From a virus: 64,000 nucleotides of DNA. Below the pieces are notes generated by a model. That model worked only from the letters and a program-made list of their open reading frames with translations, was not told the DNA's origin and did not search any database. Shown piece by piece: positions 2,804 to 19,427 of the stretch. The position numbers were made by a program, and so were the translations under genes. Location: the IMG/VR virus record IMGVR_UViG_3300028394_000034; one strand, given 5' to 3'. How positions within the stretch are numbered: the first letter of the stretch is position 1; every line of letters starts with the position of its first letter.

Positions 2804-2885
2804 CGTAAGTCGTTGGTACCAAATAACTTACAAAAATCGCGGCGGGCCGGGTTTTCCCTAAGTGCTTTATTGATAAGGGTTTACG
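2804..2885. repeat. Family-A 82-bp composite palindrome A1
   Basis: cgtaagt-N15-acttaca, 24-nt GC linker, cctaagt-N15-gtttacg. Confidence 0.9.
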
Positions 2886-2903
2886 TCAAGTGGTCTAGGT
2901 ACA

Positions 2904-2943
2904 AAAAAAGAACCGCCACCCATTGCTGAGTGGCGGCTCCCAA
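2904..2943 (-). terminator. Rho-independent terminator after DUF932 gene
   Basis: gagccgccactca-gcaa-tgggtggcggttc followed by T7 on the minus strand. Confidence 0.85.
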
Positions 2944-2964
2944 GTCAACCCCCATTGCGAGGGA

Positions 2965-3918
2965 TTAGAGTGCCTGAGCGAACTCCATAGCCTTCTCCAA
3001 CGCTTTCGTGTTGTCGTTGGCGTTGAGTCCGAACCACAGGCTGTCGAGACGGTTATCTTCCGTTCGACCCTTGTTGTAATTCAGATACTCGTTGTAGCCG
3101 TTGTACGCGGCCCACCAAGTTCCACGAACACCCGTCGCACTCTGCTTCGGGCCTTCGACCAGATTCAGAATCTCGTCCATAATATTACGGGTACGAGTCT
3201 TGATCTGATCGTCCGGCGTACCGTCAATGTCGAGCATCGCCTTGACATAGCGACGAACGTCGGCCTGATTGAAATTCTTGGACGCAAGGAATTTGAACTG
3301 CTCCGCAGTCGCTTCAAACTCCATGTTGATGTTGTCCATAATATCTCGCACATTTTCCAGATTGGTCTTGCTGGAACGGGTGTGACGAATACGAATCAGC
3401 TTGGAACCACTGCTCTTGCTATGGGCCATTGCCATAGTATTAGCACACACAACGCGGATCGGCGTATAGCCAACCCGAATAGCAGTCGTGCCATCGTGCG
3501 AGTTGCTGAGAAGAATAAACTTCCCAACCTCGTCACCCTTCACGATCTCGCTATTGTCGCGGTTCAGTTGGGCCAGCACCCAAACCTTCTGACCGCTGTG
3601 GAGCGAACCAGCAGTATGCAACGCACACTCGCCAGCGTCCAGAAACGGCTGGAACCAATCGAACGCTTCGCTGTTTTGCAGCGGAGTGTATCGTGGGCCG
3701 ACAACGCCCAGAATACTATCGTCGGTCTTGCGATAGGTTGCACGAGCCGGAACGGGTTGATTCGTTTCCAGCGTGATCAAATCTCGCAGACCAACTTCCC
3801 AATCCAAACCGGCGGCAGTCATCGCCTCCGAAACCGTGGGAGCCTCGTCGAGCTTGTTGCCCAAACCGTGCCACGGGGTCGCACCAACAAACATCATCTG
3901 TTCAACTGCATGAGCCAT
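2965..3918 (-). CDS. DUF932-family phage/plasmid protein
   Basis: PWHGLG, LDWEV, GVVGPRYTPLQN, TAGSL..G.KVWVLA, SHDGT.A, PIRVVCANT, H(T) motifs typical of DUF932; start refined to MAHAVE. Confidence 0.85.
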   Translation of the reverse strand: MAHAVEQMMFVGATPWHGLGNKLDEAPTVSEAMTAAGLDWEVGLRDLITLETNQPVPARATYRKTDDSILGVVGPRYTPLQNSEAFDWFQPFLDAGECALHTAGSLHSGQKVWVLAQLNRDNSEIVKGDEVGKFILLSNSHDGTTAIRVGYTPIRVVCANTMAMAHSKSSGSKLIRIRHTRSSKTNLENVRDIMDNINMEFEATAEQFKFLASKNFNQADVRRYVKAMLDIDGTPDDQIKTRTRNIMDEILNLVEGPKQSATGVRGTWWAAYNGYNEYLNYNKGRTEDNRLDSLWFGLNANDNTKALEKAMEFAQAL

Positions 3919-3961
3919 AATCATCCCTTTCGTGTTACTGTTCAATCGTTCTACTCCACTC

Positions 3962-3990
3962 ATTCTACAGTATGTTATCGTCACTGTCAA
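3962..3990 (-). promoter_or_regulatory. sigma70-type early promoter
   Basis: TTGACA-17(CGATA)-TAGAAT. Confidence 0.85.
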
Positions 3991-4018
3991 GCGAAAACTT
4001 TGGAAAAATTCTTTTTGC

Positions 4019-4100
4019 CGTAAGTCGTTGGTGTGTAAGCACTTGCGTCAAACGCGGCCGGCCGACCTTTCCCTAAGTCTAATCAGGATAAGGGTTTACG
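4019..4100. repeat. Family-A element A2
   Basis: Same 29+24+29 layout; box 2 overlaps the 3' end of the PRTase ORF. Confidence 0.9.
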
Positions 4101-4618
4101 TAAGGGTTTAGAATAACTGTCCCAAACTGCTTCTCAAAAAGTTTAGAATTGGAAGCATTGTAGGCACACTCCTCACCCATGTAGAAATATGCACCAATAC
4201 ACTTTGCTCGTGGAACATCATCATGAATATTATTCATAATGCGTTTGATTGTGCCGCCCGAACAAATCAGATCATCTAAAATAACATAATTAGATGGAGC
4301 AACACCTTCAATAAAAAATTCACTATATCGTCGCTCACCTTTACGAACAACAATAATATTCTTATTTAGAATCTCTGCAATCTGTGGCACTACCATAAGA
4401 CCACTCACCCCACAGCAGGCGATACTATCAAAATCTTTTTCTATCTTACGCAGAGAACAGATAGCCTTGATAATCACACTATTTCTATATTTGTGATTTA
4501 ATACTCTACTAGTATGAGCAGCACCTTGAATGATCTTACCATCTGGGGTACGACGAAAATCATCAAGCTCTTGCTGGAAAGCGTTCATAAAAGTGTGTGG
4601 CCGGATTTGAACCGACAA
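4079..4618 (-). CDS. Type I phosphoribosyltransferase-domain protein
   Basis: PRPP-binding loop YVILDDLICSGGT; IIVVRK. Confidence 0.8.
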   Translation of the reverse strand: MSVQIRPHTFMNAFQQELDDFRRTPDGKIIQGAAHTSRVLNHKYRNSVIIKAICSLRKIEKDFDSIACCGVSGLMVVPQIAEILNKNIIVVRKGERRYSEFFIEGVAPSNYVILDDLICSGGTIKRIMNNIHDDVPRAKCIGAYFYMGEECAYNASNSKLFEKQFGTVILNPYVNPYPD

Positions 4619-4680
4619 TCCCGAGAAGAAGAAAGGAATAAAGAATAGGGTCTAGTCCCACCTAGAAGCACACACAAAAA

Positions 4681-4863
4681 TCAATCTTGTTCATCTTCAA
4701 TACTAGGATAGTAATTCCTACCATATGAAGGAACCTCATCATCTTCCTCAGAATCTTCATAACCATCCATCCAAGGTTCTTCGTCCAGACCAAGATCCTC
4801 GGTATTTTCTACCAATTCATCGTAGTCATAATTATAACCATCGTAGTGATCTTCATATCTCAT
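4681..4863 (-). CDS. Highly acidic small protein
   Basis: About 24 of 60 residues D/E (hand count); own promoter. Confidence 0.6.
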   Translation of the reverse strand: MRYEDHYDGYNYDYDELVENTEDLGLDEEPWMDGYEDSEEDDEVPSYGRNYYPSIEDEQD

Positions 4864-4885
4864 AATCATTCCCTTTCTTACCTCT

Positions 4886-4914
4886 ATTCTACACCAACAA
4901 TCAACAACTGTCAA
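4886..4914 (-). promoter_or_regulatory. sigma70-type early promoter
   Basis: TTGACA-17-TAGAAT. Confidence 0.85.
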
Positions 4915-4915
4915 G

Positions 4916-4988
4916 TGGGCCCTCGGGGATTTGAACCCCGAACCTAAGAGTTAAAAGCTCCTTGCTCTGCCAATTGAGCTAAAGGCCC
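4916..4988 (-). tRNA. tRNA-Lys(UUU)
   Basis: Cloverleaf; loop CTTTTAA; GTTCAAAT T-loop. Confidence 0.9.
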
Positions 4989-4994
4989 ATCTAG

Positions 4995-5168
4995 TTATTC
5001 GTTTACGGTAATTTCCTCGTAAGAATAACTTTGGACACTCTCGGTTGTAAAATCATAGAGCTTATCGAATACATCCGACCATTCAAAATCCTCTTGCATG
5101 GATAGTTGAATGTCTGCCAGAGTTTTACCATCCTCGGTCACAATGTCGTAGATACGAAGATTCTTCAT
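4995..5168 (-). CDS. Hypothetical protein
   Basis: MKNLRIYDI..., AAGGA RBS, behind promoter 5192-5220. Confidence 0.6.
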   Translation of the reverse strand: MKNLRIYDIVTEDGKTLADIQLSMQEDFEWSDVFDKLYDFTTESVQSYSYEEITVNE

Positions 5169-5191
5169 ACAGTTTCCTTTCTTGTTCCAAC

Positions 5192-5220
5192 AGTCTACCA
5201 TACCAATATCGTCCTGTCAA
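5192..5220 (-). promoter_or_regulatory. sigma70-type early promoter
   Basis: TTGACA-17(CGATA)-TAGACT. Confidence 0.8.
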
Positions 5221-5239
5221 CACCCAAAACTTTAGGATT

Positions 5240-5281
5240 CTCGCTGACTATTCCCACAGCTTCCAAATCCGCAGGATTAGC
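5240..5281. repeat. Repeat family B copy 4
   Basis: ctcgctgactattcccacagcttccaaatccgcaggattagc. Confidence 0.85.
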
Positions 5282-5290
5282 AGAAACAAA

Positions 5291-5362
5291 TGACCCCACG
5301 GAGAATCGAACTCCGATCTCCACCGTGAAAGGGTGGCGTACTAGCCGTTATACAATGGGGCC
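5291..5362 (-). tRNA. tRNA-Glu(UUC)
   Basis: Anticodon arm ccacc-CTTTCAC-ggtgg. Confidence 0.9.
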
Positions 5363-5400
5363 ACACTCGCAACTCAACATCAGCCTCCGATTCTTAAAAG

Positions 5401-5485
5401 CGGCTGGAACAGGATTCGAACCTGTGGAGGATTTCTCCTCGTCGGTTTAGTAAACCGGTGCATTAGACCGCTCTGCCATCCAGCC
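5401..5485 (-). tRNA. tRNA-Ser body with ACU anticodon
   Basis: Class II tRNA, long variable arm, G73; anticodon arm ccggt-TTACTAA-accga. Confidence 0.8.
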
Positions 5486-5489
5486 AAAA

Positions 5490-5561
5490 CTGCCCCGGTA
5501 GGATTCGAACCTACAACCTCGATGTTAACAGCATCTTGCACAACCGTTGTGCTACAGGGCA
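5490..5561 (-). tRNA. tRNA-Asn(GUU)
   Basis: Loop CTGTTAA; G73. Confidence 0.9.
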
Positions 5562-5896
5562 TCATGTATTTCTTTATGACAGTTAGAGCATACTAAAATG
5601 CACTTGTCTGCCTCTTCTTTCATTCTATCTAGTTTTAATGTATTGCCAGTGCTTCCAATCCCAAAGTCTTTCTTAGATGGGTCTAAGTGATGAAACTCTA
5701 ATGCGGCTAGACATTTGTTATATCCGCACCTCTCACACTTACCTCCTTTATATTCAACTAATAATGATTTGACTTTTCTTCTTCTTTTAGATACGGCATC
5801 TGAGCGACATTTTGTACAGCGATATGCACCACGACCCTCAAGCACATACTTGCATGAGCCGTGTGTTTTACACTGTTTTTCTATATATTTTTCCAT
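5552..5896 (-). CDS. HNH endonuclease (homing-type) inside the tRNA cluster
   Basis: GGKCERCGY..C..ALEFHH...KCILVCSNCHKEIH. Confidence 0.85.
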   Translation of the reverse strand: MEKYIEKQCKTHGSCKYVLEGRGAYRCTKCRSDAVSKRRRKVKSLLVEYKGGKCERCGYNKCLAALEFHHLDPSKKDFGIGSTGNTLKLDRMKEEADKCILVCSNCHKEIHDAL

Positions 5897-5913
5897 GGTA
5901 TAACTCCGGTTGT

Positions 5914-5931
5914 TATACCATTTAATACACC
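5914..5931 (-). promoter_or_regulatory. Putative phage late promoter for HNH
   Basis: GGTGTAT-N7-TATA, same motif as upstream of structural genes. Confidence 0.55.
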
Positions 5932-5937
5932 AAATAA

Positions 5938-6008
5938 TTCCGGGACTAGGATTCGAACCCAGACAAAGAGAACCAAAATCTCTGGTGCTACCGTTACACT
6001 ATCCCGGA
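5938..6008 (-). tRNA. tRNA-Gln(UUG)
   Basis: agaga-TTTTGGT-tctct. Confidence 0.9.
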
Positions 6009-6009
6009 G

Positions 6010-6081
6010 AGCCGACAACAGGACTTGAACCTGTAACCTACTGATTACAAATCAGTGGCTCTACCATTGAGCTATGTCGGC
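6010..6081 (-). tRNA. tRNA-Thr(UGU)
   Basis: actga-TTTGTAA-tcagt. Confidence 0.9.
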
Positions 6082-6097
6082 AGTCTATGTATTATAA

Positions 6098-6286
6098 TCA
6101 ATAGTCTCCATAATCGCAAGCCCTACGCTTTTCAGCGGATCGGGTTCGCAGACGCTTGGGGCGATTGTCCATAATAGTATTGCGGTGTTCCTTGTGACCC
6201 GTAGGAACTTGCCACTGCGGCCTGACCTTGATCTTGATATGGTTGCGGCGTGGTCTGGTATCGTCGTTGTTGTGGAGCGTAATCAT
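6098..6286 (-). CDS. Small basic hypothetical protein
   Basis: Arg/Lys-rich ...DNRPKRLRTR; overlaps the 6132 ORF in another frame. Confidence 0.45.
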   Translation of the reverse strand: MITLHNNDDTRPRRNHIKIKVRPQWQVPTGHKEHRNTIMDNRPKRLRTRSAEKRRACDYGDY

Positions 6287-6557
6287 GCCATTGTCCGTTT
6301 TCGTGTAGGTAAAAAACTTTGTCAATATTAGGGTCGTAAGCCATCAGACAGTATTGTACCGGATAAGTTGGTTTTGTCAATACCTGTTTTTGTTGAGAGG
6401 GATGACGCAGTGGCGGAATTTTAATATCACCTTTTTGATAATCTTTTACACCAGTATACGCCAAACCAACAATCGTAATCAGAATCCCGATCCATTGTAT
6501 CATAATCTCAGTCCTTGTCAATATCCTTCTCGTTCTCATATCTATATTATCGACCAA
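6132..6557 (-). CDS. Membrane-anchored hypothetical protein
   Basis: TM segment WIGILITIVGLAY; Q/Y/P-rich tail. Confidence 0.55.
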   Translation of the reverse strand: MVDNIDMRTRRILTRTEIMIQWIGILITIVGLAYTGVKDYQKGDIKIPPLRHPSQQKQVLTKPTYPVQYCLMAYDPNIDKVFYLHENGQWHDYAPQQRRYQTTPQPYQDQGQAAVASSYGSQGTPQYYYGQSPQASANPIR

Positions 6558-6593
6558 CCACCACCAAATACTTTAGAAGTTTTTTGGAATTTC

Positions 6594-6675
6594 TCTAAGT
6601 CCTTATGCTGCAACAACTTACGTCAAAACCGGGCGGCCCCGCTTGCCCTAAGTGCTTACGCACCAAGGGTTTGCG
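6594..6675. repeat. Family-A element A3
   Basis: 29+24+29 layout. Confidence 0.9.
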
Positions 6676-6682
6676 GCGAGTC

Positions 6683-6913
6683 TTATTCAATACTCCATCC
6701 TGCGTCTTTTAGAATATGGCTAGTATGCAACACACAAGTTTTACCATCAGCATTTTTATAGTCTCTATATCCACGCTCATCAAGATAGATATACTCATCT
6801 AGTGTATCATTTTCATTTGTTTCCCAGATAGCATCCATAGCAGCATATCGTGGAGCCTTATCACAAGAGTAAATTAGTTCCAGAGTTCCACACTTGATAT
6901 AGTATTTGCTCAT
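6683..6913 (-). CDS. Hypothetical protein
   Basis: TAATG-coupled to the upstream kinase-like gene. Confidence 0.6.
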   Translation of the reverse strand: MSKYYIKCGTLELIYSCDKAPRYAAMDAIWETNENDTLDEYIYLDERGYRDYKNADGKTCVLHTSHILKDAGWSIE

Positions 6914-7506
6914 TATTGTTCCTCCCGGAACTTTTGACATAGAACACAATTACATCCCCCGTAATCATCAAACTCGACAGCATCATCAGCATCATAATCA
7001 AACTTCCCATAAATATCTTCATCCCATTCAGTAAAACTCTCAATACCAAGATCGATAACAACCGCTACCCATTTTCCCTTGCGTCGAATATAACCAAAAT
7101 TACCACTATGGGCATCATTATAGTCTAATCCGTGTTCACTCAAATCATGAACTACTTCAGAGATAGCAGTACCGTTTTTACATTCAGACCACTGAAAACA
7201 ATCACCAGAACAATCTTCATCATTACACTCTGGCATAGGCCGAGCAACTTCGGTCAAATAACCATAAAAAGTCATTTCGCCATCATGTTTACGAATAAAA
7301 CCAACATCCCCATATACCATAGGGGCCAAATCAAACTGAGCCAGATGCTTTTGAACCCGATGGGCAAACTTAGCTTCCTGCTCATTCTCAAACTCTTTGA
7401 AGCCCACACGCTTCCGGCCAATCTTTTTATCTTTGATAATATAGAAAGCGTTCTTGCTTCCTGCATCATCATACAATCCAACGTAGCTCATTTTTATTCC
7501 TTTCAA
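6913..7506 (-). CDS. Protein kinase-like/APH-fold protein
   Basis: VGFK..F...EA (K/E pair), catalytic loop DAHSGN, VVIDLG (DFG-like). Confidence 0.65.
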   Translation of the reverse strand: MKGIKMSYVGLYDDAGSKNAFYIIKDKKIGRKRVGFKEFENEQEAKFAHRVQKHLAQFDLAPMVYGDVGFIRKHDGEMTFYGYLTEVARPMPECNDEDCSGDCFQWSECKNGTAISEVVHDLSEHGLDYNDAHSGNFGYIRRKGKWVAVVIDLGIESFTEWDEDIYGKFDYDADDAVEFDDYGGCNCVLCQKFREEQ

Positions 7507-8207
7507 TGGGCTGGAAACAAGACATTAGCTAAACCACGAACACACAAGTCACATGATATACTATCTTTGGTTCCGGTGCAAGTGATTTCTGCACGACCAC
7601 GACGGATTTCGGGGCATACCACAAACTTTGTAGCATTGAGAACAACCAGCTTGGGCAGTGCTTTTCGCCATGCTTCGGCCTTGACTTTGCTCTTAGGACG
7701 CTTGGGAGCAACTTTCATGTCACTATCGCACCATGCAAACAACTTGAAACCTTGTGCCAATGCTTCGCCCATATCATTATCGTCATGCACACTAGCATAT
7801 ACATTCATATACTTTTCCAGACTCACAAGCCGAGCATCGTAGATATGAGTATAAAACCACATATCGGGCAAAGTATTACCATCGGCCAGAATACTCTCAC
7901 AAGCCCATGTTACATTCGCAACATAGTCTAGGTCAAGTTCTCCATTGAGAAACCAGTCGCCACGTTCATGCCAGCGAATAGACTTCTCACGACGCTTTGC
8001 TTCCAGAATCATAGCACGGATTTTATTCTTCTCCGTGATAACATTAGCAAACCCGGCAGTACGAGCATTTTTATACTGATTCTCGGTCGCTTCGGCATAA
8101 CAGCCGTTACCAAGATAGTCACAATCGGGAGGACAAGTATCGCCAACCGGACGCGAAACTACAATACAACCCTTACCCAACTTATCATTACCATCAGCAG
8201 TTTTCAT
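7503..8207 (-). CDS. Gp88-like Cys-rich phage protein
   Basis: GN.KLG, TCPPDC..CYA, IRWHERGD, WFYTH, YASV, CPE..ITC..CDLC..VLFPAH. Confidence 0.65.
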   Translation of the reverse strand: MKTADGNDKLGKGCIVVSRPVGDTCPPDCDYLGNGCYAEATENQYKNARTAGFANVITEKNKIRAMILEAKRREKSIRWHERGDWFLNGELDLDYVANVTWACESILADGNTLPDMWFYTHIYDARLVSLEKYMNVYASVHDDNDMGEALAQGFKLFAWCDSDMKVAPKRPKSKVKAEAWRKALPKLVVLNATKFVVCPEIRRGRAEITCTGTKDSISCDLCVRGLANVLFPAH

Positions 8208-8285: not shown

Positions 8286-8367
8286 TGCAAGTCGTTGGTA
8301 GATAAGGACTTACGACGAACCGGGGCGGCCGGACTTGTCCTAAGTGCTTATGCAGTAAGGGTTTATG
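8286..8367. repeat. Family-A element A4
   Basis: 29+24+29 layout; 5 nt from the tRNA-Arg 3' end. Confidence 0.9.
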
Positions 8368-8372
8368 ACAAA

Positions 8373-8968: not shown

Positions 8969-9050
8969 CCTAAGTTCTTTCCAGATAAGGACTTACATCA
9001 AATTCGGCGGGCCGGCCTCTCCCTAAGTTCTTTAGGGACAAGGCTTTAGG
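8969..9050. repeat. Family-A element A5
   Basis: 29+24+29 layout; ORF stop directly abuts it. Confidence 0.9.
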
Positions 9051-10223: not shown

Positions 10224-10305
10224 CGTAAAGTCTTTAGAGATAAGGACTTACGGCAGATTTGGCCGCCCGCCCTTGAGCTAAGTTCTTTAGCACCAAGGAC
10301 TTATG
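10224..10305. repeat. Family-A element A6
   Basis: 29+24+29 layout; ORF stop directly abuts it. Confidence 0.9.
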
Positions 10306-11566: not shown

Positions 11567-11648
11567 TGTAACCCTATGATACACAAGCACTTACGTCAAA
11601 TTCGGCCGCCCCGCCTTACCCTAAGTTCTTTAACTATAAGGGTTTATG
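11567..11648. repeat. Family-A element A7
   Basis: 29+24+29 layout. Confidence 0.85.
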
Positions 11649-12201: not shown

Positions 12202-12283
12202 CGTAAAGTGTTGATGAATAAGGACTTACATCAAACGCGGCCCGCCGGCCTCGCCCTAAGTGCTTTCGCAGCAACGACTTAGG
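12202..12283. repeat. Family-A element A8
   Basis: 29+24+29 layout. Confidence 0.9.
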
Positions 12284-13150: not shown

Positions 13151-13232
13151 CGTAAAGCGTTGATACATAAGTACTTACGACGAAGCCGGCCCGCCGCGTC
13201 GGCCCTAAGTGCTTGAACACAAAGGGTTTACG
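13151..13232. repeat. Family-A element A9
   Basis: 29+24+29 layout; left arm is an exact IHF consensus. Confidence 0.9.
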
Positions 13233-13594: not shown

Positions 13595-14123
13595 TACCTT
13601 CTTTTTCGTTTTCATTTCAGTCTCCGTAAGTATCAGAATCGTTCATGTAAATTAATCGACCAACTCGGTTAGAACAATTATATTCCTTATTCCAACCAGC
13701 TTCAATTTCTGGAGACTTTTCAGGCAAGCCTACAGACTTACGATATTCAATCCATTTTTCTTCATTAGTCATTTCTGCTCTTCATCTTTCTTTAATGGGC
13801 CACGATAGCCTTTAAATCTTTTCAACTCACCATAGTAATTACGACCAGCAGAACCGTGTTGAGTCTTTTTCTTTTTAGGCTTTTCGTACATAACCTTCAA
13901 CAAAAATTCATAGTGTAAATCCATTTTATACTCCTAACCAAACATCTCATATTCTTCATCAGTCAATGCTACCTCATCTGGACGATAACAATTGTTGCCA
14001 TACAGATCACGATTCTTAGGACGCTTTTCCCATTCATCCATGAATCGGTTATACTCTTCGATACGCTTTTCTTCTTCACTTTTCATCATTCACTTTTTCT
14101 TTCTCTAATACCTTATATCGACA

Positions 14124-14151
14124 AGTATAGCAGACAATCTTTAGCTGTCAA
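14124..14151 (-). promoter_or_regulatory. sigma70-type promoter, class II
   Basis: TTGACA-16-TATACT-tgtCGATA. Confidence 0.75.
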
Positions 14152-14184
14152 ACAGAAAGTTTTCTTACAATATCGTAAGGTTGG

Positions 14185-14266
14185 CGTAAAGTGTTGGCAT
14201 ATAACGACTTATGTCAAATTCGGCCCGCCGCGCCGGCCCTAAGTGCTTATGCACAAAGGGTTTACG
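14185..14266. repeat. Family-A element A10
   Basis: 29+24+29 layout. Confidence 0.9.
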
Positions 14267-14274
14267 GCGAATTT

Positions 14275-14538
14275 TCAATCGTCGTATGGGCCATCATCAT
14301 TATAATCAACAAATCCGACAGCTTCATCAGCGTGGAAATCTTCCTGGTAATCTAAATCTTCCCCGTAATAGCCGTAGGACTCATCCATTCCATGTCCTGC
14401 GGAAGCCAACGCAGATTCAGCATCACCATCCATACTATCATCAAACGAATCATCCTCAACCTCATAATCGGAAAGGTCAGTGTCCATGCACTCACCGTAG
14501 AAATCTTCAACATCGTCGTATTCGTAGCTCATGGTCAA
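14275..14538 (-). CDS. Extremely acidic small protein
   Basis: 87 aa, D/E/Y-rich, no Lys or Arg. Confidence 0.6.
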   Translation of the reverse strand: MTMSYEYDDVEDFYGECMDTDLSDYEVEDDSFDDSMDGDAESALASAGHGMDESYGYYGEDLDYQEDFHADEAVGFVDYNDDGPYDD

Positions 14539-14598
14539 TCCTTCACAATGGTAGTAATGTAGAGCAGGCCAACATAGGACGCAACGAACGCAATCGCA

Positions 14599-14772
14599 CT
14601 AAGCATCAATATACTCCTCTGGAATGAAATCGTCAACAGCACCCACCACTTCTGCCCAATCCCAAAAATTCACTTCCACGCTGGGATCGTCAATCGGCTC
14701 GACCATCGGTTCCACAATCCCCTTTTCGGCCATGTCGTTCAGAATGTCATTGATCTCGTCGAAGTTCAGCAT
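14599..14772 (-). CDS. Acidic small protein
   Basis: MLNFDEINDIL...; behind promoter 14809. Confidence 0.55.
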   Translation of the reverse strand: MLNFDEINDILNDMAEKGIVEPMVEPIDDPSVEVNFWDWAEVVGAVDDFIPEEYIDA

Positions 14773-14808
14773 GATTCTGTTTCCTATGGGTTTCCTTGTG
14801 ATGCTTCG

Positions 14809-14837
14809 ATTATACACTTATCATCGACATATTGCAA
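14809..14837 (-). promoter_or_regulatory. sigma70-type early promoter
   Basis: TTGCAA-17-TATAAT. Confidence 0.8.
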
Positions 14838-14890
14838 GCCCCCCATAAAATTTCTTTCCTTATATTTTTGTAAGGTTCGCCGGCTATCGT

Positions 14891-14907
14891 TTGGCACGGC
14901 ATTTGCT
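14891..14907 (+). promoter_or_regulatory. sigma54-type -24/-12 site
   Basis: TTGGCACGGCATTTGCT (GG-N10-GC). Confidence 0.65.
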
Positions 14908-14920
14908 GTTGGGGGGTTTT

Positions 14921-15002
14921 CGTAAAGTGTTGCAGGATAAGCACTTATGGCTCGCTGGGCCGGCCGAACTCGACGTAAGTCCTTATGAGTTAAGGAGATA
15001 CG
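14921..15002. repeat. Family-A element A11
   Basis: 29+24+29 layout; box 2 overlapped by a small ORF end. Confidence 0.85.
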
Positions 15003-15376
15003 TCAAGCCACACCCAAGAACAAAAGCTGTACCTAATAGAATATAATCACTAATTTTCATCATTTTCCTCCATATACATGATATGTGACATACTAGCAGA
15101 GAGTAAGATACCGACAATATAACCAAAAGCAACGCTAATAAAATCAAATTGATACATCCCTGTATCTCCAGTGTTATTGGGTCAATCCCCATATCCTACC
15201 CAGAACTCATCACCATTTTCATCTTTCATAAGAGTAAAGCCCCTAGACTTCATCCTCTCATATTCACCAAATCTCTGCCAGACTTCACAAATCGTTTCCA
15301 TACACTTGAGCATCATCCCCATAACCCACACAAACGGATATTGAATCATTCTCATAACCCTCTCCTATTCTGCACC

Positions 15377-15405
15377 ATTCTACACTATTGTTATCGACCC
15401 GTCAA
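15377..15405 (-). promoter_or_regulatory. sigma70-type early promoter
   Basis: TTGACG-17(CGATA)-TAGAAT. Confidence 0.8.
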
Positions 15406-15417
15406 GGGCCCCGACTT

Positions 15418-15459
15418 TAGGCTGACTATACCCACCCTACCCAAATCCGTAGGATTAGC
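15418..15459. repeat. Repeat family B copy 6
   Basis: taggctgactatacccaccctacccaaatccgtaggattagc. Confidence 0.85.
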
Positions 15460-15477
15460 TCGGACAGTTATCTGTCC

Positions 15478-15657
15478 TTACTTGACAGACTCCATGTGTT
15501 CAAACGTGATGCACTTGTCCAGATAGATCGACCGATACCCCTGTTCGGCCTTGACCGTCAGGAGAACACGATCTCCAAACCCACGCACATTGACAACTTC
15601 ACCATTGACGATTTCACCGTTGTCATAATCCGCAAAAACAAAGTCACCGATTTTCAT
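15478..15657 (-). CDS. Small beta-rich protein (59 aa), paralog of 18692-18880
   Basis: MKIGDFVFADYDNGEIVNGEVV...GYRSIYLDKC (translated by hand; below the ORF-track cutoff). Confidence 0.7.
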   Translation of the reverse strand: MKIGDFVFADYDNGEIVNGEVVNVRGFGDRVLLTVKAEQGYRSIYLDKCITFEHMESVK

Positions 15658-15697
15658 TGTTCTACCCTTTTCCTTTTCTCTTACTTGTTATATCGAC

Positions 15698-15725
15698 ATT
15701 ATACCAAAGGATATTTAGCTTGCAA
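15698..15725 (-). promoter_or_regulatory. sigma70-type promoter, class II
   Basis: TTGCAA-16-TATAAT-gtCGATA. Confidence 0.75.
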
Positions 15726-15768
15726 GCGAAAAGTTTCCTTACAATTCCGTAAGGTTCGCGGAGAAAGT

Positions 15769-15785
15769 TTGGCACACCATTTGCT
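15769..15785 (+). promoter_or_regulatory. sigma54-type -24/-12 site
   Basis: TTGGCACACCATTTGCT. Confidence 0.65.
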
Positions 15786-15797
15786 ATAGAGACTCGA

Positions 15798-15879
15798 CGT
15801 AAAGTGTTGGCACATAAGCACTTAGAGCAAATTCGGCCCGCAAAATTCGTCGTAAGTGCTTTAGCAGCAAGGGTTTACG
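15798..15879. repeat. Family-A element A12
   Basis: 29+24+29 layout. Confidence 0.9.
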
Positions 15880-16020
15880 ACAAGTTTTTGAGTTTGCGCC
15901 TGTACACCCGTTTACCATCCACCCAAATGGGGAGGTATAGCTTAGGGTACAACTGAACATATGTATTCTTTACTAGACGCTCAGTCTCTAGTGTAACGTC
16001 GTACACTAGTATACAGTTGT

Positions 16021-16347
16021 TCATTCTTCCCCCTTGAAGCTGAACGGGCTGATTTCGAGATGAGCAACAACACCGTATTGCTTGGTCAGTTCCTCGACAC
16101 GTTCACGGCTACCCGGCTTACCAACCGGAACGATCATGGTATCCTCGCTACCGATCATCCGCGGGTCAACCTTTTCCATCTTGCTCTTGCCCATATTCTT
16201 CAATGCTGTCCGATTGAACTTCAGAACCTTTTCCACTTGGATCATCTCACCGTCGATGTCTTTCACTTCGGTAGGAATCGCCATACCAAGAAAGCACAGA
16301 CGGGCTTGACGCTTGGCAGCTTGAATGATCGGGAACTTGGTAGCCAT
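16021..16347 (-). CDS. Hypothetical protein
   Basis: 108-aa ORF with GAGGA RBS behind promoter 16387. Confidence 0.65.
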   Translation of the reverse strand: MATKFPIIQAAKRQARLCFLGMAIPTEVKDIDGEMIQVEKVLKFNRTALKNMGKSKMEKVDPRMIGSEDTMIVPVGKPGSRERVEELTKQYGVVAHLEISPFSFKGEE

Positions 16348-16386
16348 GTTTCTTATCCTCTAGGGTTATCGTTCTCTTGTGAGTGT

Positions 16387-16414
16387 ATTATACCAAACTG
16401 ATTTTCAATGTCCA
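16387..16414 (-). promoter_or_regulatory. sigma70-type promoter
   Basis: TGGACA-16-TATAAT. Confidence 0.6.
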
Positions 16415-16454
16415 GCAAAATCTTTCCTTACATTTTCGTAAGGTTTCTCGTCTC

Positions 16455-16679
16455 TCACACAGGAGTCGGATTCGACCGGTAGTATTTTGCCCACAGATCA
16501 TCGATCACGAACTGGACAACGCGATCATGTGAACCACGGCAGACATAGTAGCCCATGTGGATATCGAACAGAGCAAACGATCCATCCTCTTTCGGATGAA
16601 ACGTAAACCCACACTTGTAGGCGTAGGCGTTGATCTTACCCTTGACAGTCGAACTTTTCGGAGGCTTTCTCATTTTCAT
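16455..16679 (-). CDS. Hypothetical protein
   Basis: AAGGA RBS; behind promoter 16711. Confidence 0.6.
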   Translation of the reverse strand: MKMRKPPKSSTVKGKINAYAYKCGFTFHPKEDGSFALFDIHMGYYVCRGSHDRVVQFVIDDLWAKYYRSNPTPV

Positions 16680-16710
16680 TCCTTCTTTCTTCTCTTGTTC
16701 TTATATCGAC

Positions 16711-16738
16711 ATTATACCATACCCTCTTTAGGTTGCAA
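16711..16738 (-). promoter_or_regulatory. sigma70-type promoter, class II
   Basis: TTGCAA-16-TATAAT-gtCGATA. Confidence 0.75.
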
Positions 16739-16780
16739 GCAAAATCTTTCCTTACAAAGTCGTAAGGTTTGCCGGCCGTA

Positions 16781-16840
16781 TTGGCACAGCATTTGCTATA
16801 TGCAATTATCATGCCAAACTTTTTTGGCACAGCATTTGCG
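16781..16840. promoter_or_regulatory. Triplet of sigma54-type sites (+,-,+)
   Basis: TTGGCACAGCATTTGC / minus-strand TTGGCATGATAATTGCA / TTGGCACAGCATTTGC. Confidence 0.7.
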
Positions 16841-16851
16841 TTACCGCTTGA

Positions 16852-16933
16852 CGTAAAGTGTTGGTATATAAGCACTTATGGCAAATTCGGCCCCGAAAAT
16901 TCGTCGTAAGTCCTTTGGTATCAAGGGTTTACG
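16852..16933. repeat. Family-A element A13
   Basis: 29+24+29 layout; right arm TATCAAGGGTTTA is an exact IHF consensus. Confidence 0.9.
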
Positions 16934-16957
16934 TCGAATCTTTTGTACACTACTATA

Positions 16958-17275
16958 CTACTGTATAGTCATCCCCTCGATATAGGGGAATACCTTACCA
17001 TTTGTATGTACGTTCCACTCTCCCTTTACTTGTCGAACATATCCCGGAATATACTGATTTATCCTATCCTTAGTCGTTGGGGTATACCATCCCCCTGTTC
17101 GTAGGGTATAGGTATTATCCTCATGGATTGTGACCACATATGTACTGTGGAGCATTACCCCTACGCTACCATCTGGCATAATCTCAGCATATGTATTGTT
17201 ACCAATCTTTCGGGATTGCCGGCCCGTCTTACCATGTACCATCTTTACTGCTTCAGTGTGTGTCATTTTGCTCAC
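16958..17275 (-). CDS. Conserved small phage protein
   Basis: KIGNNT...LH.T.VV...L.TGGWYT.TTKDRIN. Confidence 0.65.
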   Translation of the reverse strand: MSKMTHTEAVKMVHGKTGRQSRKIGNNTYAEIMPDGSVGVMLHSTYVVTIHEDNTYTLRTGGWYTPTTKDRINQYIPGYVRQVKGEWNVHTNGKVFPYIEGMTIQ

Positions 17276-17533
17276 CAGCTTTCGCTGATCATCCCTAGTA
17301 ATTGTTGAAGAAACTGTAGAATCTCTTTTATGTTATATGTGGCATAATCCACATAACCATCGGGCAGATACCTAGACATAATTTTCTCAGTCGTTGTCGT
17401 GAAGGATGGAATGGATAGCGTTACCTACCTCGTGGGCAGTGTAAGACATGAAACCAGCAAAACTAATCAGGGCAAACAGCTGAACGTATTCGATAGGCGT
17501 AATCATTTAGGAGTCTCTCTTTCTTGTTTGTCT

Positions 17534-17563
17534 ATTATACAGTATCGGCTATTCTCTTGTCAA
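17534..17563 (-). promoter_or_regulatory. sigma70-type promoter
   Basis: TTGACA-18(CGATA)-TATAAT. Confidence 0.75.
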
Positions 17564-17567
17564 CCAC

Positions 17568-17726
17568 TTAGAAATTCCAAATGCTTTTTGAATTATAGGG
17601 GAGCAGATCGTCAATCGGGAAGCCCGTAGCTTCTGCAACAATCTTTCGGGCTACCATCCAATCGGCGGCGGATGCTTGACCGATAAACTTGTGATCACCA
17701 TAGCTGAAGAAGTAAAACGTTTTCAT
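17568..17726 (-). CDS. Small hypothetical protein (52 aa)
   Basis: MKTFYFFSYGDHKFIG...; AAGGA RBS behind promoter 17756 (hand translation). Confidence 0.5.
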   Translation of the reverse strand: MKTFYFFSYGDHKFIGQASAADWMVARKIVAEATGFPIDDLLPYNSKSIWNF

Positions 17727-17755
17727 TTTCTTTTTTCCTTTTCTCTTGTTTCTCT

Positions 17756-17785
17756 ATTATACTCTATCGGTTATTGTCTTGTCAA
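17756..17785 (-). promoter_or_regulatory. sigma70-type promoter
   Basis: TTGACA-18(CGATA)-TATAAT. Confidence 0.75.
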
Positions 17786-17812
17786 CTCTTGAACCTTGCA
17801 ATGTCGTAAGGT

Positions 17813-18055
17813 TCAGGCAAAATCCTCTTCACCAAAGAAATCATCGAGCCATTGGTCATCAGTCTCGATATGATCCTCAGTATCCCCCATAATGGGGTCC
17901 CAACCTTCCCCATCGTCAAGGCCCGGAATGTAGTCGGCTTCCATGCTATCGTCTGCAATGATCGTGCAATGCTCACCACACTGGGAGCAAATCTCATGAT
18001 CGACATTGCTTTCAGCATTGCAGCAATCGGAAACGTATAAGGTATTCTTTTCCAT
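17813..18055 (-). CDS. Small Zn-ribbon plus acidic-tail protein
   Basis: SDCCNA...CSQCGEHC then D/E-rich C-terminus. Confidence 0.65.
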   Translation of the reverse strand: MEKNTLYVSDCCNAESNVDHEICSQCGEHCTIIADDSMEADYIPGLDDGEGWDPIMGDTEDHIETDDQWLDDFFGEEDFA

Positions 18056-18101
18056 TTTCTTATCCTCTTTTCTTTCTTGTTCTCTTTTCTCTTATATCGA
18101 C

Positions 18102-18129
18102 ATTATACAGTAGATTCTGAAACATTCAA
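18102..18129 (-). promoter_or_regulatory. sigma70-type promoter, class II
   Basis: TTGAAT-16-TATAAT-gtCGATA. Confidence 0.7.
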
Positions 18130-18192
18130 GCAAAATCCAAAAAGATTTATGTCAAGAGATTTTGACAAAACTTTTCATCATTTTCTATACGA

Positions 18193-18252
18193 TTGGCATA
18201 CCATTTGCTCTATGCAATTATCGTGCCAAACTTTTTTGGCATGAAATTTGCT
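18193..18252. promoter_or_regulatory. Triplet of sigma54-type sites (+,-,+)
   Basis: TTGGCATACCATTTGC / minus-strand TTGGCACGATAATTGCA / TTGGCATGAAATTTGC. Confidence 0.7.
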
Positions 18253-18289
18253 GTGTGTTAAGATAGGTAAGATTGGGCCAAAAACGTGT

Positions 18290-18371
18290 CGTAAGTCATT
18301 GCAGCATAAGCACTTACGACGAGCCGGCCGCCGCGAATTTGACGTAAGTCCTTTATCCATAAGGGTTTGCA
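18290..18371. repeat. Family-A element A14
   Basis: 29+24+29 layout. Confidence 0.9.
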
Positions 18372-18666
18372 TCAAGCCGGCCAGTATACAAGCGTATACC
18401 CTACAGAATAGAGTATAATTCCCCTACGATCACAAAGAACCTATACGCTAGAACAGTTAGCAGTATACAAGCGATCAGGTCTACAATTATCATGATACCA
18501 ATTCCTCTTTTGCTTGAAGTGATTCCACAAGAGCCCAACATTCATTGAACGTAATATGTCGGGCGATTACCACCCCACCATACCATACCTCATACCGATC
18601 CCCTGTCCGATTGGAAGTATTCCAGTAGATCATTTTCTTTTGCATGGCTTGTATCCTCTTTTCCGT

Positions 18667-18695
18667 ATTGTATACGTTGTCCGTTTAGGTGTCAA
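18667..18695 (-). promoter_or_regulatory. sigma70-type promoter
   Basis: TTGACA-17-TACAAT. Confidence 0.75.
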
Positions 18696-18880
18696 GCGGT
18701 AGCCAAATAATTGCAAGAAACACACTTGTCGAGATACATTGAACGATATCCAACATTCTCGATTTTCAACGTGAACAGGAGTCGATACCCTTCCATATAC
18801 TTGACGCTCACGATTTCCCCAACAAACTTTTCACCCGTAGCATATTCGACCGAGACGTTGTATCCGATTTCCATTTTCAT
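18692..18880 (-). CDS. Small beta-rich protein, paralog of 15478-15657
   Basis: MEIGYNVSVEYATGEKFVGEIV...GYRSMYLDKC. Confidence 0.7.
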   Translation of the reverse strand: MKMEIGYNVSVEYATGEKFVGEIVSVKYMEGYRLLFTLKIENVGYRSMYLDKCVSCNYLATA

Positions 18881-18914
18881 TTCCTTTTCTTTATCGTTCG
18901 TTTCTTGTTTCTGT

Positions 18915-18943
18915 ATTATACTGATCGGCTTTTTTGTTGTCAA
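18915..18943 (-). promoter_or_regulatory. sigma70-type promoter
   Basis: TTGACA-17-TATAAT, perfect consensus. Confidence 0.9.
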
Positions 18944-18960
18944 TACCTTAGAAAATATTT

Positions 18961-19194
18961 TTACCGATAGATTCCATCGTTGATAACGTATCCGTCATTA
19001 TCCACTTCGATGAACTCTCCTTCATCACCCATCGGAAAGAAATATTCGATCATGTTTCGATTATTCTTCGCTTCGTCAAGCAGTTCTCCACCGATTGCAT
19101 ATTCGGTACCAACCAGAGTATCCAGTTCAATCGAATTGTTGTAGAGCACTTCGTTCAGTTCTTCCCGATTCATGATGATTTTCGTATTCTTCAT
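18961..19194 (-). CDS. Acidic hypothetical protein
   Basis: MKNTKIIMNREEL...; first gene after promoter 19235. Confidence 0.6.
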   Translation of the reverse strand: MKNTKIIMNREELNEVLYNNSIELDTLVGTEYAIGGELLDEAKNNRNMIEYFFPMGDEGEFIEVDNDGYVINDGIYR

Positions 19195-19234
19195 TTTCTT
19201 ATCCTTTTCTTTCCTTGTTTTCTCTTGTGCTTTC

Positions 19235-19262
19235 ATTATACAGTATTTATCGACCACTTCAA
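19235..19262 (-). promoter_or_regulatory. sigma70-type promoter
   Basis: TTGAAG-16(CGATA)-TATAAT. Confidence 0.7.
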
Positions 19263-19317
19263 TAGGAAAAATAAAAAAATCCAAAATATATTTTCATGCC
19301 AAATAACTTTTTTCTTT

Positions 19318-19334
19318 TTGGCACACCACTTGCG
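19318..19334 (+). promoter_or_regulatory. sigma54-type -24/-12 site
   Basis: TTGGCACACCACTTGCG. Confidence 0.6.
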
Positions 19335-19345
19335 TTAAAACTTGA

Positions 19346-19427
19346 CGTAAACCGTTGGCACATAAGCACTTACGACGAATTTTCGGGAGAGAGATCATCA
19401 TAAGTTGTTTATTTTCATATACTTACA
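19346..19427. repeat. Family-A element A15 (most divergent linker)
   Basis: cgtaaac-N15-acttacg, 24 nt, cataagt-N15-acttaca. Confidence 0.8.

What the first reader, a model, noticed from the sequence alone, without database searches (positions are those of the whole stretch)
2804..19427. Array of early gene cassettes delimited by 15 copies of an exactly 82-bp four-arm palindrome
Seen: elements start at 2804, 4019, 6594, 8286, 8969, 10224, 11567, 12202, 13151, 14185, 14921, 15798, 16852, 18290 and 19346. Each is box 1 [(TGA)CGTAARK-YGTTG-N5-TAAGS-ACTTAYG(TCA)], a GC-rich linker of invariant 24 nt (core ggccgcc/ggcccgcc), then box 2 [CCTAAGT-SCTTW-N5-YAAGG-GTTTAYG]. Primary sequence drifts, but the 7-15-7 / 24 / 7-15-7 geometry never does. 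The box-to-box period is 53 bp, about 5 helical turns. Outer arms (CGTAAA/TTTACG) and inner arms (ACTTACG/CGTAAGT or CCTAAGT) pair, so the element can fold as two small hairpins or one long one. Read on the coding strand, the usual unit is: gene(s), element, A-rich UP tract, consensus promoter, next 1-5 small unrelated genes. The element is absent from the 44-kb late region. Inference: a modular system for capturing, shuffling or co-regulating accessory (host-takeover/anti-defence) cassettes. It is analogous to T4-type PeSL cassettes and integron arrays, but the site architecture is one I do not recognise. No recombinase is encoded in this window.
Basis: partly seen in the sequence, partly recalled or inferred. 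Interest (0 to 1): 0.9.

Follow-up and report, generated by a model that had tools for sequence, protein, structure and literature searches.

The report
Phased double-palindrome operators before phage promoters
Fifteen copies of a fixed 82-bp double palindrome sit between the early gene units of an uncultured 200-kb freshwater phage, each on a set helical face upstream of a host-type promoter. They behave like docking sites for an unidentified DNA-binding regulator and not like a recombinase-driven gene-capture system.

Summary
A weight-matrix scan finds 32 copies of a 29-bp palindromic box in the complete 199,884-bp genome, all at window 1731-19427. Thirty form 15 pairs exactly 53 bp apart, and two are single. 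The element is common in related uncultured freshwater phages: 458 pairs at exactly 53 bp in 118 IMG/VR stretches. It is absent from bacterial genomes apart from four small freshwater MAG contigs of discordant taxonomy, probably mis-binned phage DNA.

Base identity is conserved, but pairing is no better than column shuffles, and neither strand folds better than the other. Copies are polar and co-oriented with the genes. They start a median 8 nt after the upstream stop codon, and a sigma70-type -35 follows at 18, 29, 40, 51 or 61 nt, about one helical turn apart. The two single boxes overlap a -35 and a transcription start.

The genome has no tyrosine or serine recombinase, HUH transposase or IS110 enzyme. 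Cassette order is mostly conserved, yet gains, losses and chimeric elements occur at the element. Sister phages use a different double palindrome (CTGCCAAAATGGCAG twice, 29 bp apart) in the same layout.

Best reading: an operator array that also serves as a homologous-recombination joint. The binder is unknown. This scan read the same element the same way on a related genome (e1-5733042).

The parts
19346..19427 (-). Element 1, first in the direction of transcription. The promoter-proximal box is intact. The distal box and the linker are degenerate.
   Evidence: PWM 33.8 and 8.8 bits. A -35 TTGAAG at 19262 lies 83 nt downstream.
18290..18371 (-). Element 2 (two 29-bp boxes and a 24-nt GC-rich linker)
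   Evidence: PWM 32.8 and 28.8 bits. A triplet of sigma54-like boxes lies between the element and the promoter at 18129.
16852..16933 (-). Element 3
   Evidence: PWM 25.4 and 34.9 bits. -35 TTGCAA at 16738.
15798..15879 (-). Element 4
   Evidence: PWM 26.2 and 34.7 bits. -35 at 15725, 72 nt downstream.
14921..15002 (-). Element 5
   Evidence: PWM 26.7 and 28.0 bits. -35 at 14837, 83 nt downstream. Relative L067 has an extra unit inserted at this element's edge.
14185..14266 (-). Element 6
   Evidence: PWM 25.2 and 33.5 bits. -35 TTGACA at 14151, 33 nt downstream.
13151..13232 (-). Element 7
   Evidence: PWM 27.6 and 31.9 bits. A weak promoter, TTGCAT-17-TAGAAT, lies 37 nt downstream. In relative L063 the element at 8563 is chimeric between this element and element 6.
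12202..12283 (-). Element 8
   Evidence: PWM 27.7 and 33.7 bits. -35 TTGACA at 12173, 28 nt downstream.
11567..11648 (-). Element 9
   Evidence: PWM 19.6 and 25.5 bits. -35 TTGACA at 11527, 39 nt downstream.
10224..10305 (-). Element 10
   Evidence: PWM 31.4 and 26.2 bits. -35 at 10195, 28 nt downstream. The upstream stop codon abuts the element.
8969..9050 (-). Element 11
   Evidence: PWM 29.8 and 30.7 bits. -35 TTGACA at 8929, 39 nt downstream. The upstream stop codon abuts the element.
8286..8367 (-). Element 12, directly after a tRNA gene (8373-8444)
   Evidence: PWM 30.4 and 30.5 bits. tRNA. -35 at 8257, 28 nt downstream.
6594..6675 (-). Element 13
   Evidence: PWM 30.3 and 32.2 bits. -35 TTGACA at 6521, 72 nt downstream.
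4019..4100 (-). Element 14
   Evidence: PWM 32.7 and 17.9 bits. -35 TTGACA at 3990, 28 nt downstream.
2804..2885 (-). Element 15, last pair. A separate canonical intrinsic terminator (2941-2908) precedes it.
   Evidence: PWM 25.9 and 30.8 bits. Terminator and -35 at 2770.
2709..2737 (-). Single box starting 4 nt after the -10 (TACAAT, 2747-2742), so it covers the predicted transcription start. This is a repressor-type position.
   Evidence: PWM 26.9 bits. Sequence read. The same box at the same promoter is kept in sister phages whose arrays use another palindrome.
1731..1759 (-). Single box overlapping the -35 of a promoter with an extended -10 (TGGTATACT)
   Evidence: PWM 26.3 bits. Sequence read. 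The orthologous box is kept in type-2 sister phages.
20040..20258 (-). Weak candidate for the box-binding protein: a 72-aa basic protein (pI 10.5) with a three-helix HTH and an AT-hook (RGRP). It is encoded at the head of the array.
   Evidence: AT_hook at Pfam's cut-off. Model pLDDT 81, with best fold matches to the HTH domain of the G20c small terminase, the GcrA DNA-binding domain and Myb. In 80 loci chosen by this protein, 496 boxes lie downstream and 0 upstream. Binding to the box was not tested.

Best explanation
The 82-bp element is a composite operator. It consists of two 29-bp palindromic boxes held five helical turns apart (53 bp) and is read as double-stranded DNA by a sequence-specific, probably oligomeric DNA-binding protein. 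The protein is most likely phage-encoded and is not yet identified.

Each element starts right after the stop codon of one early unit and sits on a fixed face of the helix upstream of the next unit's sigma70-type promoter. Occupancy would therefore set the activity of about 15 early promoters together. I think the likeliest effect is shut-off or insulation: repression of the downstream promoter, and perhaps a block to read-through from the upstream unit, as with mycobacteriophage stoperators. The reasons are that the promoters are already near consensus, that intrinsic terminators are almost absent, and that the two single boxes overlap a -35 and a start site.

As a by-product, the repeated 82-bp homology serves as a joint for homologous recombination, so whole units (promoter, genes, element) are gained, lost and swapped between related phages.

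Shown: the repeat, its geometry, polarity and phasing, its sequence conservation without covariation, its distribution, and the lack of recombinases. Inferred: protein binding, the sign of regulation, and the identity of the binder.
For: - Confinement and significance: 32 boxes, all in 17.7 kb of a 200-kb genome, scoring far above shuffles.
- Conservation across phages: 1095 boxes and 458 pairs at exactly 53 bp in 986 kb of related IMG/VR DNA.
- Information content: near 2 bits at TAA, TT, AAG and ACTTA, and 0 bits in the central 5 nt.
- No structural selection: 77.2% of cells pair against 77.7 +/- 0.3% in shuffles, and the covariation score is 0.119 against 0.133. Mutual information is highest for neighbouring positions, not symmetric ones. 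The two strands fold equally well, -27.0 and -26.2 kcal/mol.
- Polarity: 292 of 308 confidently oriented copies share the majority orientation of their locus.
- Promoter link: 254 of 372 copies have a strong sigma70-type promoter within 160 nt downstream, against 14 and 30 in controls.
- Phasing: -35 distances cluster at 17-19, 28-30, 39-41, 50-51 and 59-63 nt in 119 independent promoter clusters (Rayleigh R 0.555 at a 10.8-bp period; null 99.9th percentile 0.29).
- Single boxes over a -35 and a start site, kept at the same promoters in sister phages.
- Arrays are uniform within a phage but of another palindrome type in sister phages with the same layout. This is as expected if a regulator and its sites evolve together.
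- Precedents: SPBRE/MrpR (PMC10516654) and stoperators (PMC9283540).
Against: - No binding protein is identified. Pfam finds no HTH_3, HTH_8 or ParB in the genome, and 20 early proteins gave no DNA-binding family.
- The only candidate, the AT-hook HTH protein, is 73-77% identical and has the same recognition helix in sister phages that use a different array palindrome.
- Paired boxes centred at about -68 to -150 are unusual positions for a simple repressor.
- One type-1 contig (L041) carries a type-2 pair at a cassette junction. The two palindrome types may therefore be interchangeable, which would fit a structural role as well.
- The GC-rich linker, conserved in composition in both types, is unexplained.
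- There are no expression or binding data. The host is unknown.
Confidence: 0.55

Rival explanations
1. The element is a PeSL-type stem-loop. Its transcript, or single-stranded DNA, folds into two hairpins or one long hairpin that terminates or attenuates transcription from the upstream unit. It acts without a protein, like the stem-loops of T4-type promoter-early stem-loop cassettes.
For: The layout matches PeSLs: stop codon, palindrome with a GC-rich core, A/T-rich tract, sigma70 promoter, SD. The element begins a median 8 nt after the upstream stop. Only two good intrinsic terminators exist in 20 kb. Predicted folding energies are about -25 kcal/mol. Two unrelated palindrome types occupy the same position in sister phages, and once within one array.
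Against: Pairing is no better than column shuffles, and there are no compensatory changes in 148 diverse copies. The middle of each stem (positions 6-9) pairs in only about 30-65% of copies. No U-tract follows on the coding strand. Element 15 is preceded by its own canonical terminator. Sequence identity is conserved to nearly 2 bits across phages whose coding DNA is only 70-90% identical. The helical phasing to the -35 and the single boxes over core promoters have no role in termination.
Confidence: 0.2
2. The paired boxes are upstream activating sequences (enhancers) for a sigma54 activator that drives the sigma54-type promoters found next to some elements.
For: TGGCAC-N5-TTGC boxes lie between element and sigma70 promoter at five window elements. 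The sense-oriented copies at 16852 and 18290 would put the box centres near -76/-129 and -100/-153 (my count). Type-2 sister phages carry a perfect sense-strand TGGCACGATATTTGCA box after their double palindrome.
Against: Ten of the 15 elements have no sigma54-like box, and most of those boxes point away from the genes. The phage has no HTH_8 protein and only a weak AAA+ match to Sigma54_activat, at 12.7 bits. The phasing is to the sigma70 -35.
Confidence: 0.08
3. The element is the site of a dedicated site-specific or hairpin-specific recombination system (integron-like, REP/RAYT-like) that captures and moves cassettes.
For: Units bounded by elements are gained, lost and replaced between relatives. 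A chimeric element and an insertion exactly at an element edge were seen. Alignment ends are enriched near elements, 29% against 11%.
Against: The complete genome has no Phage_integrase, Resolvase, Y1_Tnp or IS110 match. Order is largely collinear. Some joints lie in the promoter repeats, not in the element. Copies are restricted to one region, polar and promoter-phased. The element is absent from bacterial genomes. All observed joints fit ordinary homologous recombination between 82-bp repeats.
Confidence: 0.05

Closest known systems
PeSL (promoter-early stem-loop) cassettes of T4-type phages (Arbiol 2010, PMC2839356; Comeau 2014, PMC4122927)
   Same: The order of parts between small early genes is the same: palindrome with a GC-rich core, A/T-rich tract, strong sigma70-like promoter, SD. 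The elements lie in a variable region of small accessory genes. Indels and replacements between relatives have joints at the repeats, which fits homologous recombination.
   Different: This phage is not T4-like. Its terminase and portal give only weak generic PHROG matches and the portal has no match in INPHARED. The palindrome is a fixed-length double box with near-invariant bases and no pairing covariation. It is helically phased to the -35, and single boxes overlap core promoters. PeSL stem-loops are described as terminators. Mini-circles were not testable here.
Stoperators and operators of Cluster A mycobacteriophages (L5 gp71; PMC9283540)
   Same: Many copies of one conserved site lie in promoters and in short intergenic gaps. 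Orientation correlates with the direction of transcription. One protein is proposed to stop both initiation and elongation. Site sequences differ between related phages.
   Different: Stoperators are 13-bp asymmetric sites bound by a monomer, spread over the whole genome of temperate phages. Here the sites are 29-bp palindromes, mostly paired at 53 bp, and confined to the first 18 kb of the early block. The phage shows no lysogeny genes. No repressor is known.
SPBRE elements bound by the master repressor MrpR of Bacillus phage SPbeta (PMC10516654)
   Same: A repeated conserved element sits in the intergenic promoter regions of many units of a large phage. It was found in silico long before its binding protein was identified.
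   Different: SPBRE is a single 15-bp motif in a prophage, and MrpR has a tyrosine-recombinase fold. No Phage_integrase-like protein is found here, and the site is a phased double palindrome.
BIME/REP elements of enterobacteria with RAYT transposases (from my own knowledge, not checked in a paper here)
   Same: The build is composite: two imperfect palindromes in a fixed arrangement, separated by a linker of set length, lying outside genes at their 3' ends.
   Different: REPs are scattered over host chromosomes and have a cognate HUH (Y1) transposase. This element is absent from 185,579 species' genomes except for four small MAG contigs that look like phage DNA. No Y1_Tnp gene is present.

Membership tests
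PeSL cassettes (T4-type phages) | Strong sigma70-like early promoter with an A/T-rich upstream tract next to the repeat | tested here: met
   254 of 372 copies have a promoter matching at least 9.5 of 12 positions within 160 nt downstream. The window promoters are listed, and A-rich tracts are seen.
PeSL cassettes (T4-type phages) | A stem-loop that acts as a transcription terminator or attenuator | tested here: inconclusive
   The element can fold, but pairing equals the shuffled expectation and no U-tract follows. Function cannot be tested in silico.
PeSL cassettes (T4-type phages) | Lies in the hyperplastic regions of a T4-like myovirus genome | tested here: not met
   Terminase and portal give only weak generic PHROG matches and the capsid match is marginal. 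The portal has no INPHARED match. A 3606-aa ORF in the tail region, read as a tape-measure protein in an earlier unchecked note, would suggest a long non-T4 tail.
PeSL cassettes (T4-type phages) | Indel and replacement joints between close relatives fall at the repeats | tested here: met
   L067 insertion at the edge of element 14921. Chimeric element in L063. Novel units bounded by elements. Some joints lie in the promoter repeats instead.
Integron attC / cassette array | Adjacent tyrosine recombinase (IntI) | tested here: not met
   No PF00589 match in the complete genome. The control search matched in 14 of 14 reference genomes.
Integron attC / cassette array | Sites conserved in structure but variable in sequence; promoterless cassettes | tested here: not met
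   The sequence is conserved to nearly 2 bits without covariation. Every unit has its own promoter.
REP/BIME with RAYT | Cognate HUH (Y1) transposase and copies dispersed in a bacterial chromosome | tested here: not met
   No PF01797 match. The genome-contig scan gave only four true hits, all small freshwater MAG contigs with discordant taxonomy.
Phage operator arrays (stoperator / SPBRE type) | One conserved motif repeated in promoter and intergenic regions, with orientation tied to transcription | tested here: met
   Single boxes over a -35 and a start site.
Phage operator arrays (stoperator / SPBRE type) | A cognate DNA-binding repressor that binds the motif | not testable with these tools
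   There is only a weak candidate, the 72-aa HTH and AT-hook protein at the array head. Its sharing with type-2 phages counts against a role at the paired boxes and is compatible with a role at the shared single boxes.
sigma54 enhancer (UAS) | A -24/-12 promoter 70-150 bp downstream in the same orientation, and an activator with AAA+ and HTH_8 domains | tested here: not met
   Sense-oriented sigma54-like boxes follow only 2-3 of the 15 elements. There is no HTH_8 match, and Sigma54_activat gives only a 12.7-bit AAA+ match.

The most novel reading that the evidence does not exclude
The double palindrome is the address code of a clade-specific organiser of the early region. One oligomeric protein, docked at every unit boundary, would both stop read-through from the upstream unit (a roadblock in place of the missing intrinsic terminators) and set the next sigma70 promoter from a fixed helical face. 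The whole code can be exchanged between sister phages: type 1, CGTAAGT boxes at 53 bp, against type 2, CTGCCAAAATGGCAG at 29 bp. That exchange would give each lineage a private switch for its early genes and possibly a specificity in competition between co-infecting phages.
Probability: 0.2. Interest if true: 0.75.

Novelty: new variant of a known kind. Interest (0 to 1): 0.55.

Why it matters
Early regions of large uncultured phages are dense with unknown host-takeover and anti-defence genes, and how they are switched is mostly unknown.

This element gives a precise, conserved and abundant handle. More than 450 phased pairs were found in the first 118 IMG/VR stretches alone. A sister lineage with a different palindrome in the same layout offers a natural swap experiment. 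Finding the binder would define the early switch of a widespread clade of freshwater phages of about 200-240 kb. The element also marks the boundaries at which accessory genes are exchanged, which helps annotation and comparative work.

It is not a new class of mobile element.

Tried and rejected
- Named phage relatives: megablast of the region and tblastn of the portal against INPHARED gave nothing.
- Known RNA families: Rfam finds only eight tRNAs in the region.
- RNA structure: rejected on the pair counts, the mutual information and equal folding of both strands. A G.U bias in box 2 on the plus strand is mirrored by the opposite bias in box 1. It therefore reflects outer and inner half-site variants of a dyad-symmetric DNA site, not a strand-specific RNA.
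- Host REP/MITE: rejected. Three of the seven genome hits were chance matches without full boxes.
- Recombinases: none of four families.
- Binder search: Pfam and PHROGs on about 30 early proteins and a Pfam sweep of 139 ORFs found no classical regulator. The two DUF7326 proteins after the operator-covered promoter are near-neutral to acidic (pI 6.6 and 4.2) and unlikely binders. The most widespread array protein (108 aa, 16021-16347) also occurs in type-2 phages at 55-58% identity, so it does not explain site specificity.
- MotA-box and NtcA-site resemblances were judged by eye only and dropped, because the spacing does not fit.
- No dimer prediction was run for the HTH protein, because I do not claim that it binds.

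Full report
**Setting.** The window is the reverse strand of positions 13155-77154 of a single-contig IMG/VR virus record. The record is 199,884 bp, has direct terminal repeats, and is 100% complete by CheckV. Genome GC is 34.6%; the array lies in genome positions 57.7-75.4 kb, where 10-kb windows read 43.5% (60-70 kb) and 39.1% (70-80 kb). Structural genes (terminase, portal, capsid, a 3606-aa ORF) lie on the window's plus strand from about 20.4 kb. From the divergent point at about 19.5-20.4 kb a run of small genes goes leftward on the minus strand. It continues beyond the window for more than 100 kb. The finding covers the first 17.7 kb of that block.

**Observation.**
- Each is a 29-bp palindromic box, a 24-nt linker that is GC-rich in 14 of 15 copies, and a second box.
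- A weight matrix built from the boxes finds 32 boxes in the whole genome, all between window 1731 and 19427. Scores are mostly 25-35 bits, against at most 17 bits in shuffled genomes.
- Thirty boxes form 15 pairs with exactly 53 bp between box starts.
- Two further boxes are single (1731-1759, 2709-2737).
- The distal box of the first element (19346) is degenerate.

**Distribution.** Many come from contigs of 200-240 kb.
- In those 986 kb I count 1095 boxes and 458 neighbouring pairs at exactly 53 bp, with 5 at 52 and 4 at 54.
- Many loci align to the window's early region at 70-95% nucleotide identity.
- The same pattern in one genome per species (185,579 species) gave seven hits. Three were chance matches. 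Four were small contigs of freshwater MAGs (Baikal, Lanier, Mendota) assigned to four unrelated taxa, so they are probably mis-binned phage DNA.
- The element therefore belongs to a clade of uncultured freshwater phages and is not a host repeat.

**Sequence or structure?**
- In 372 non-identical copies the information content is near 2 bits at TAA, TT, AAG and ACTTA of each box and zero in the central five positions.
- On a gapless alignment of 148 diverse copies, 77.2% of cells form a standard pair under the two-hairpin structure. Column shuffles give 77.7 +/- 0.3%, and 486 of 500 shuffles do at least as well. The covariation score is below the shuffled mean.
- Mutual information is highest between neighbouring columns, and no symmetric pair stands out.
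- The middle of each arm (positions 6-9) is often mismatched.
- The two strands fold equally well.
- The palindrome is thus kept by conserving particular bases, not by keeping pairs. That is the signature of a dyad-symmetric protein-binding site on duplex DNA.
- Outer half-sites (CGTAAA..TTG) differ from inner ones (CSTAAGT.CTTA). The whole element therefore has an approximate two-fold axis through the linker.

**Relation to genes and promoters.**
- Elements are polar. 292 of 308 confidently oriented copies share the majority orientation of their locus.
- On the coding strand an ORF ends within 100 nt upstream in 318 of 372 copies. The median gap is 8 nt, and in 76 copies the stop codon abuts the element.
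- Downstream, 254 of 372 copies have a strong sigma70-type promoter within 160 nt. The two control flanks give 14 and 30.
- The distance from the element to the -35 peaks at 17-19, 28-30, 39-41, 50-51 and 59-63 nt. After collapsing to 119 independent promoter clusters the periodicity is strong: Rayleigh R 0.555 at 10.8 bp, with a null 99.9th percentile of 0.29. The large mode at 28-29 nt inflates this statistic, but the successive peaks are plain.
- In the window the distances are 28 (four times), 39 (twice), 72 (twice), 83 (twice), 33 (twice), 37, 113 and about 160 nt.
- Only two good intrinsic terminators exist in the 20 kb. One of them directly precedes element 15, so there the element is not needed as a terminator.
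- The two single boxes lie on core promoters. One starts 4 nt after a -10, and the other overlaps a -35.

**Recombination.**
- Relatives are largely collinear with the window. They differ by units present, absent or replaced between elements.
- In L067 an extra unit of promoter, 826 nt of novel genes and an element is inserted between the edge of element 14921 and its promoter.
- In L063 one element is chimeric between window elements 13151 and 14185.
- One order change has its joint in the promoter-proximal repeats and not in the element.
- Alignment ends lie within 30 nt of an element 29% of the time, against 11% expected.
- The complete genome has no tyrosine or serine recombinase, Y1 HUH transposase or IS110 enzyme.
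- Together this fits homologous recombination between 82-bp repeats, as proposed for PeSLs (PMC2839356, PMC4122927). It does not fit a dedicated capture machine.

**A sister palindrome.** A 72-aa basic protein is encoded at the head of the array (20040-20258). It has a confident three-helix HTH fold and an AT-hook.
- In 80 IMG/VR loci chosen by this protein alone, 496 boxes lie downstream of it and none upstream.
- Some of these loci (L144, L146, L190) carry a different element in the same layout: CTGCCAAAATGGCAG twice at exactly 29 bp with a GC-rich 14-nt linker, then sigma54-like boxes, a T-tract and a sigma70 promoter.
- A scan for this type 2 found 78 loci with 640 palindromes and 238 pairs at 29 bp.
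- Type-2 loci hold only 24 type-1 boxes, nearly all single. Most of those inspected sit at the orthologues of the window's two single-box promoters.
- One type-1 contig (L041) has a type-2 pair at a cassette junction.
- Arrays are thus essentially uniform within a phage and swapped between sister phages, while the single type-1 operators are shared. This fits sites that evolve together with a specific factor.
- It also weakens the HTH/AT-hook protein as binder of the paired boxes, because its recognition helix is the same in both lineages. It remains compatible with a role at the shared single boxes. No other regulator family was found.

**Conclusion.** The element is best read as a phased, composite operator that marks every early unit boundary. 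Control is probably negative or insulating, by analogy with stoperators (PMC9283540) and SPBRE/MrpR (PMC10516654). As a secondary effect the repeats serve as PeSL-like recombination joints. The sign of regulation, the binder and the role of the GC-rich linker are open. An earlier report of this scan on a related genome of about 230 kb (e1-5733042) reached the same reading. My tests were made independently on this window and its relatives.

Noticed in passing
window 14891-19334 (e.g. 16780-16839, 18192-18251); L190:5040-5100: Sigma54-type boxes (TGGCAC-N5-TTGC) lie between the element and the sigma70 promoter at five window elements. They often form a triplet in which the two outer boxes point away from the genes and the middle one points with them. 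The same triplet follows the type-2 double palindrome in sister phages, with a perfect TGGCACGATATTTGCA box on the sense strand.
   Followed up: partly
L144:11315-15684, L190:4995-10229 and 78 IMG/VR loci (L219-L295): A second double-palindrome family (CTGCCAAAATGGCAG twice, exactly 29 bp apart, GC-rich 14-nt linker) takes the place of the 82-bp element in sister phages. There are 238 such pairs in 78 loci.
   Followed up: partly
window 13100-13130, 14160-14180, 14853-14888, 15732-15767, 16421-16456, 16745-16780: A short palindrome, CCTTAC-N6-GTAAGG, lies just upstream of the -35 of several early promoters. Its arms resemble the box arms (GTAAG/CTTAC) in the opposite arrangement.
   Followed up: no
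window 201-254, 1050-1103, 2562-2591, 5237-5290, 11662-11715, 15415-15468: Another repeat family, GCTGACTATAnCCAC...CCAAATCCnnAGGATTAGC, has 5-6 copies in and beyond the array. Its function is unknown. It contains a GGCTGA/TCAGCC hairpin on the coding strand.
   Followed up: no
window 3962-3990, 8229-8257, 8901-8929, 10167-10195, 11499-11527, 12145-12173: The early sigma70-type promoters share a conserved spacer motif (G)ACGATA(a/c)TA between -35 and -10. This is more than host RNA polymerase alone should require.
   Followed up: no
window 4916-6081, 8373-8444, 11099-11170: Eight tRNA genes on the minus strand are embedded among the early units. One tRNA ends directly at element 8286.
   Followed up: no
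window 1943-2137 (minus strand): By eye, a 64-aa basic protein resembles HicA-type toxins (KLGF..EHGDGS...H). It lies in the operon whose promoter carries the single box over its start site, after two DUF7326 paralogues.
   Followed up: no
G000:C1:138991-139125; ORFs within G000:C1:57000-118000 (Pfam sweep, positions not resolved): The phage encodes a sigma70-family protein (199-aa frame, Sigma70_r4 at 48.8 bits). It also encodes a RuvB-like AAA+ protein, an endonuclease VII, a SET-domain protein and a volactin-like actin.
   Followed up: no
G000 positions 60000-80000 against the rest of the genome: The array region is a GC-rich island (43.5% and 39.1% in its two 10-kb windows) in a genome of 34.6% GC.
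   Followed up: no
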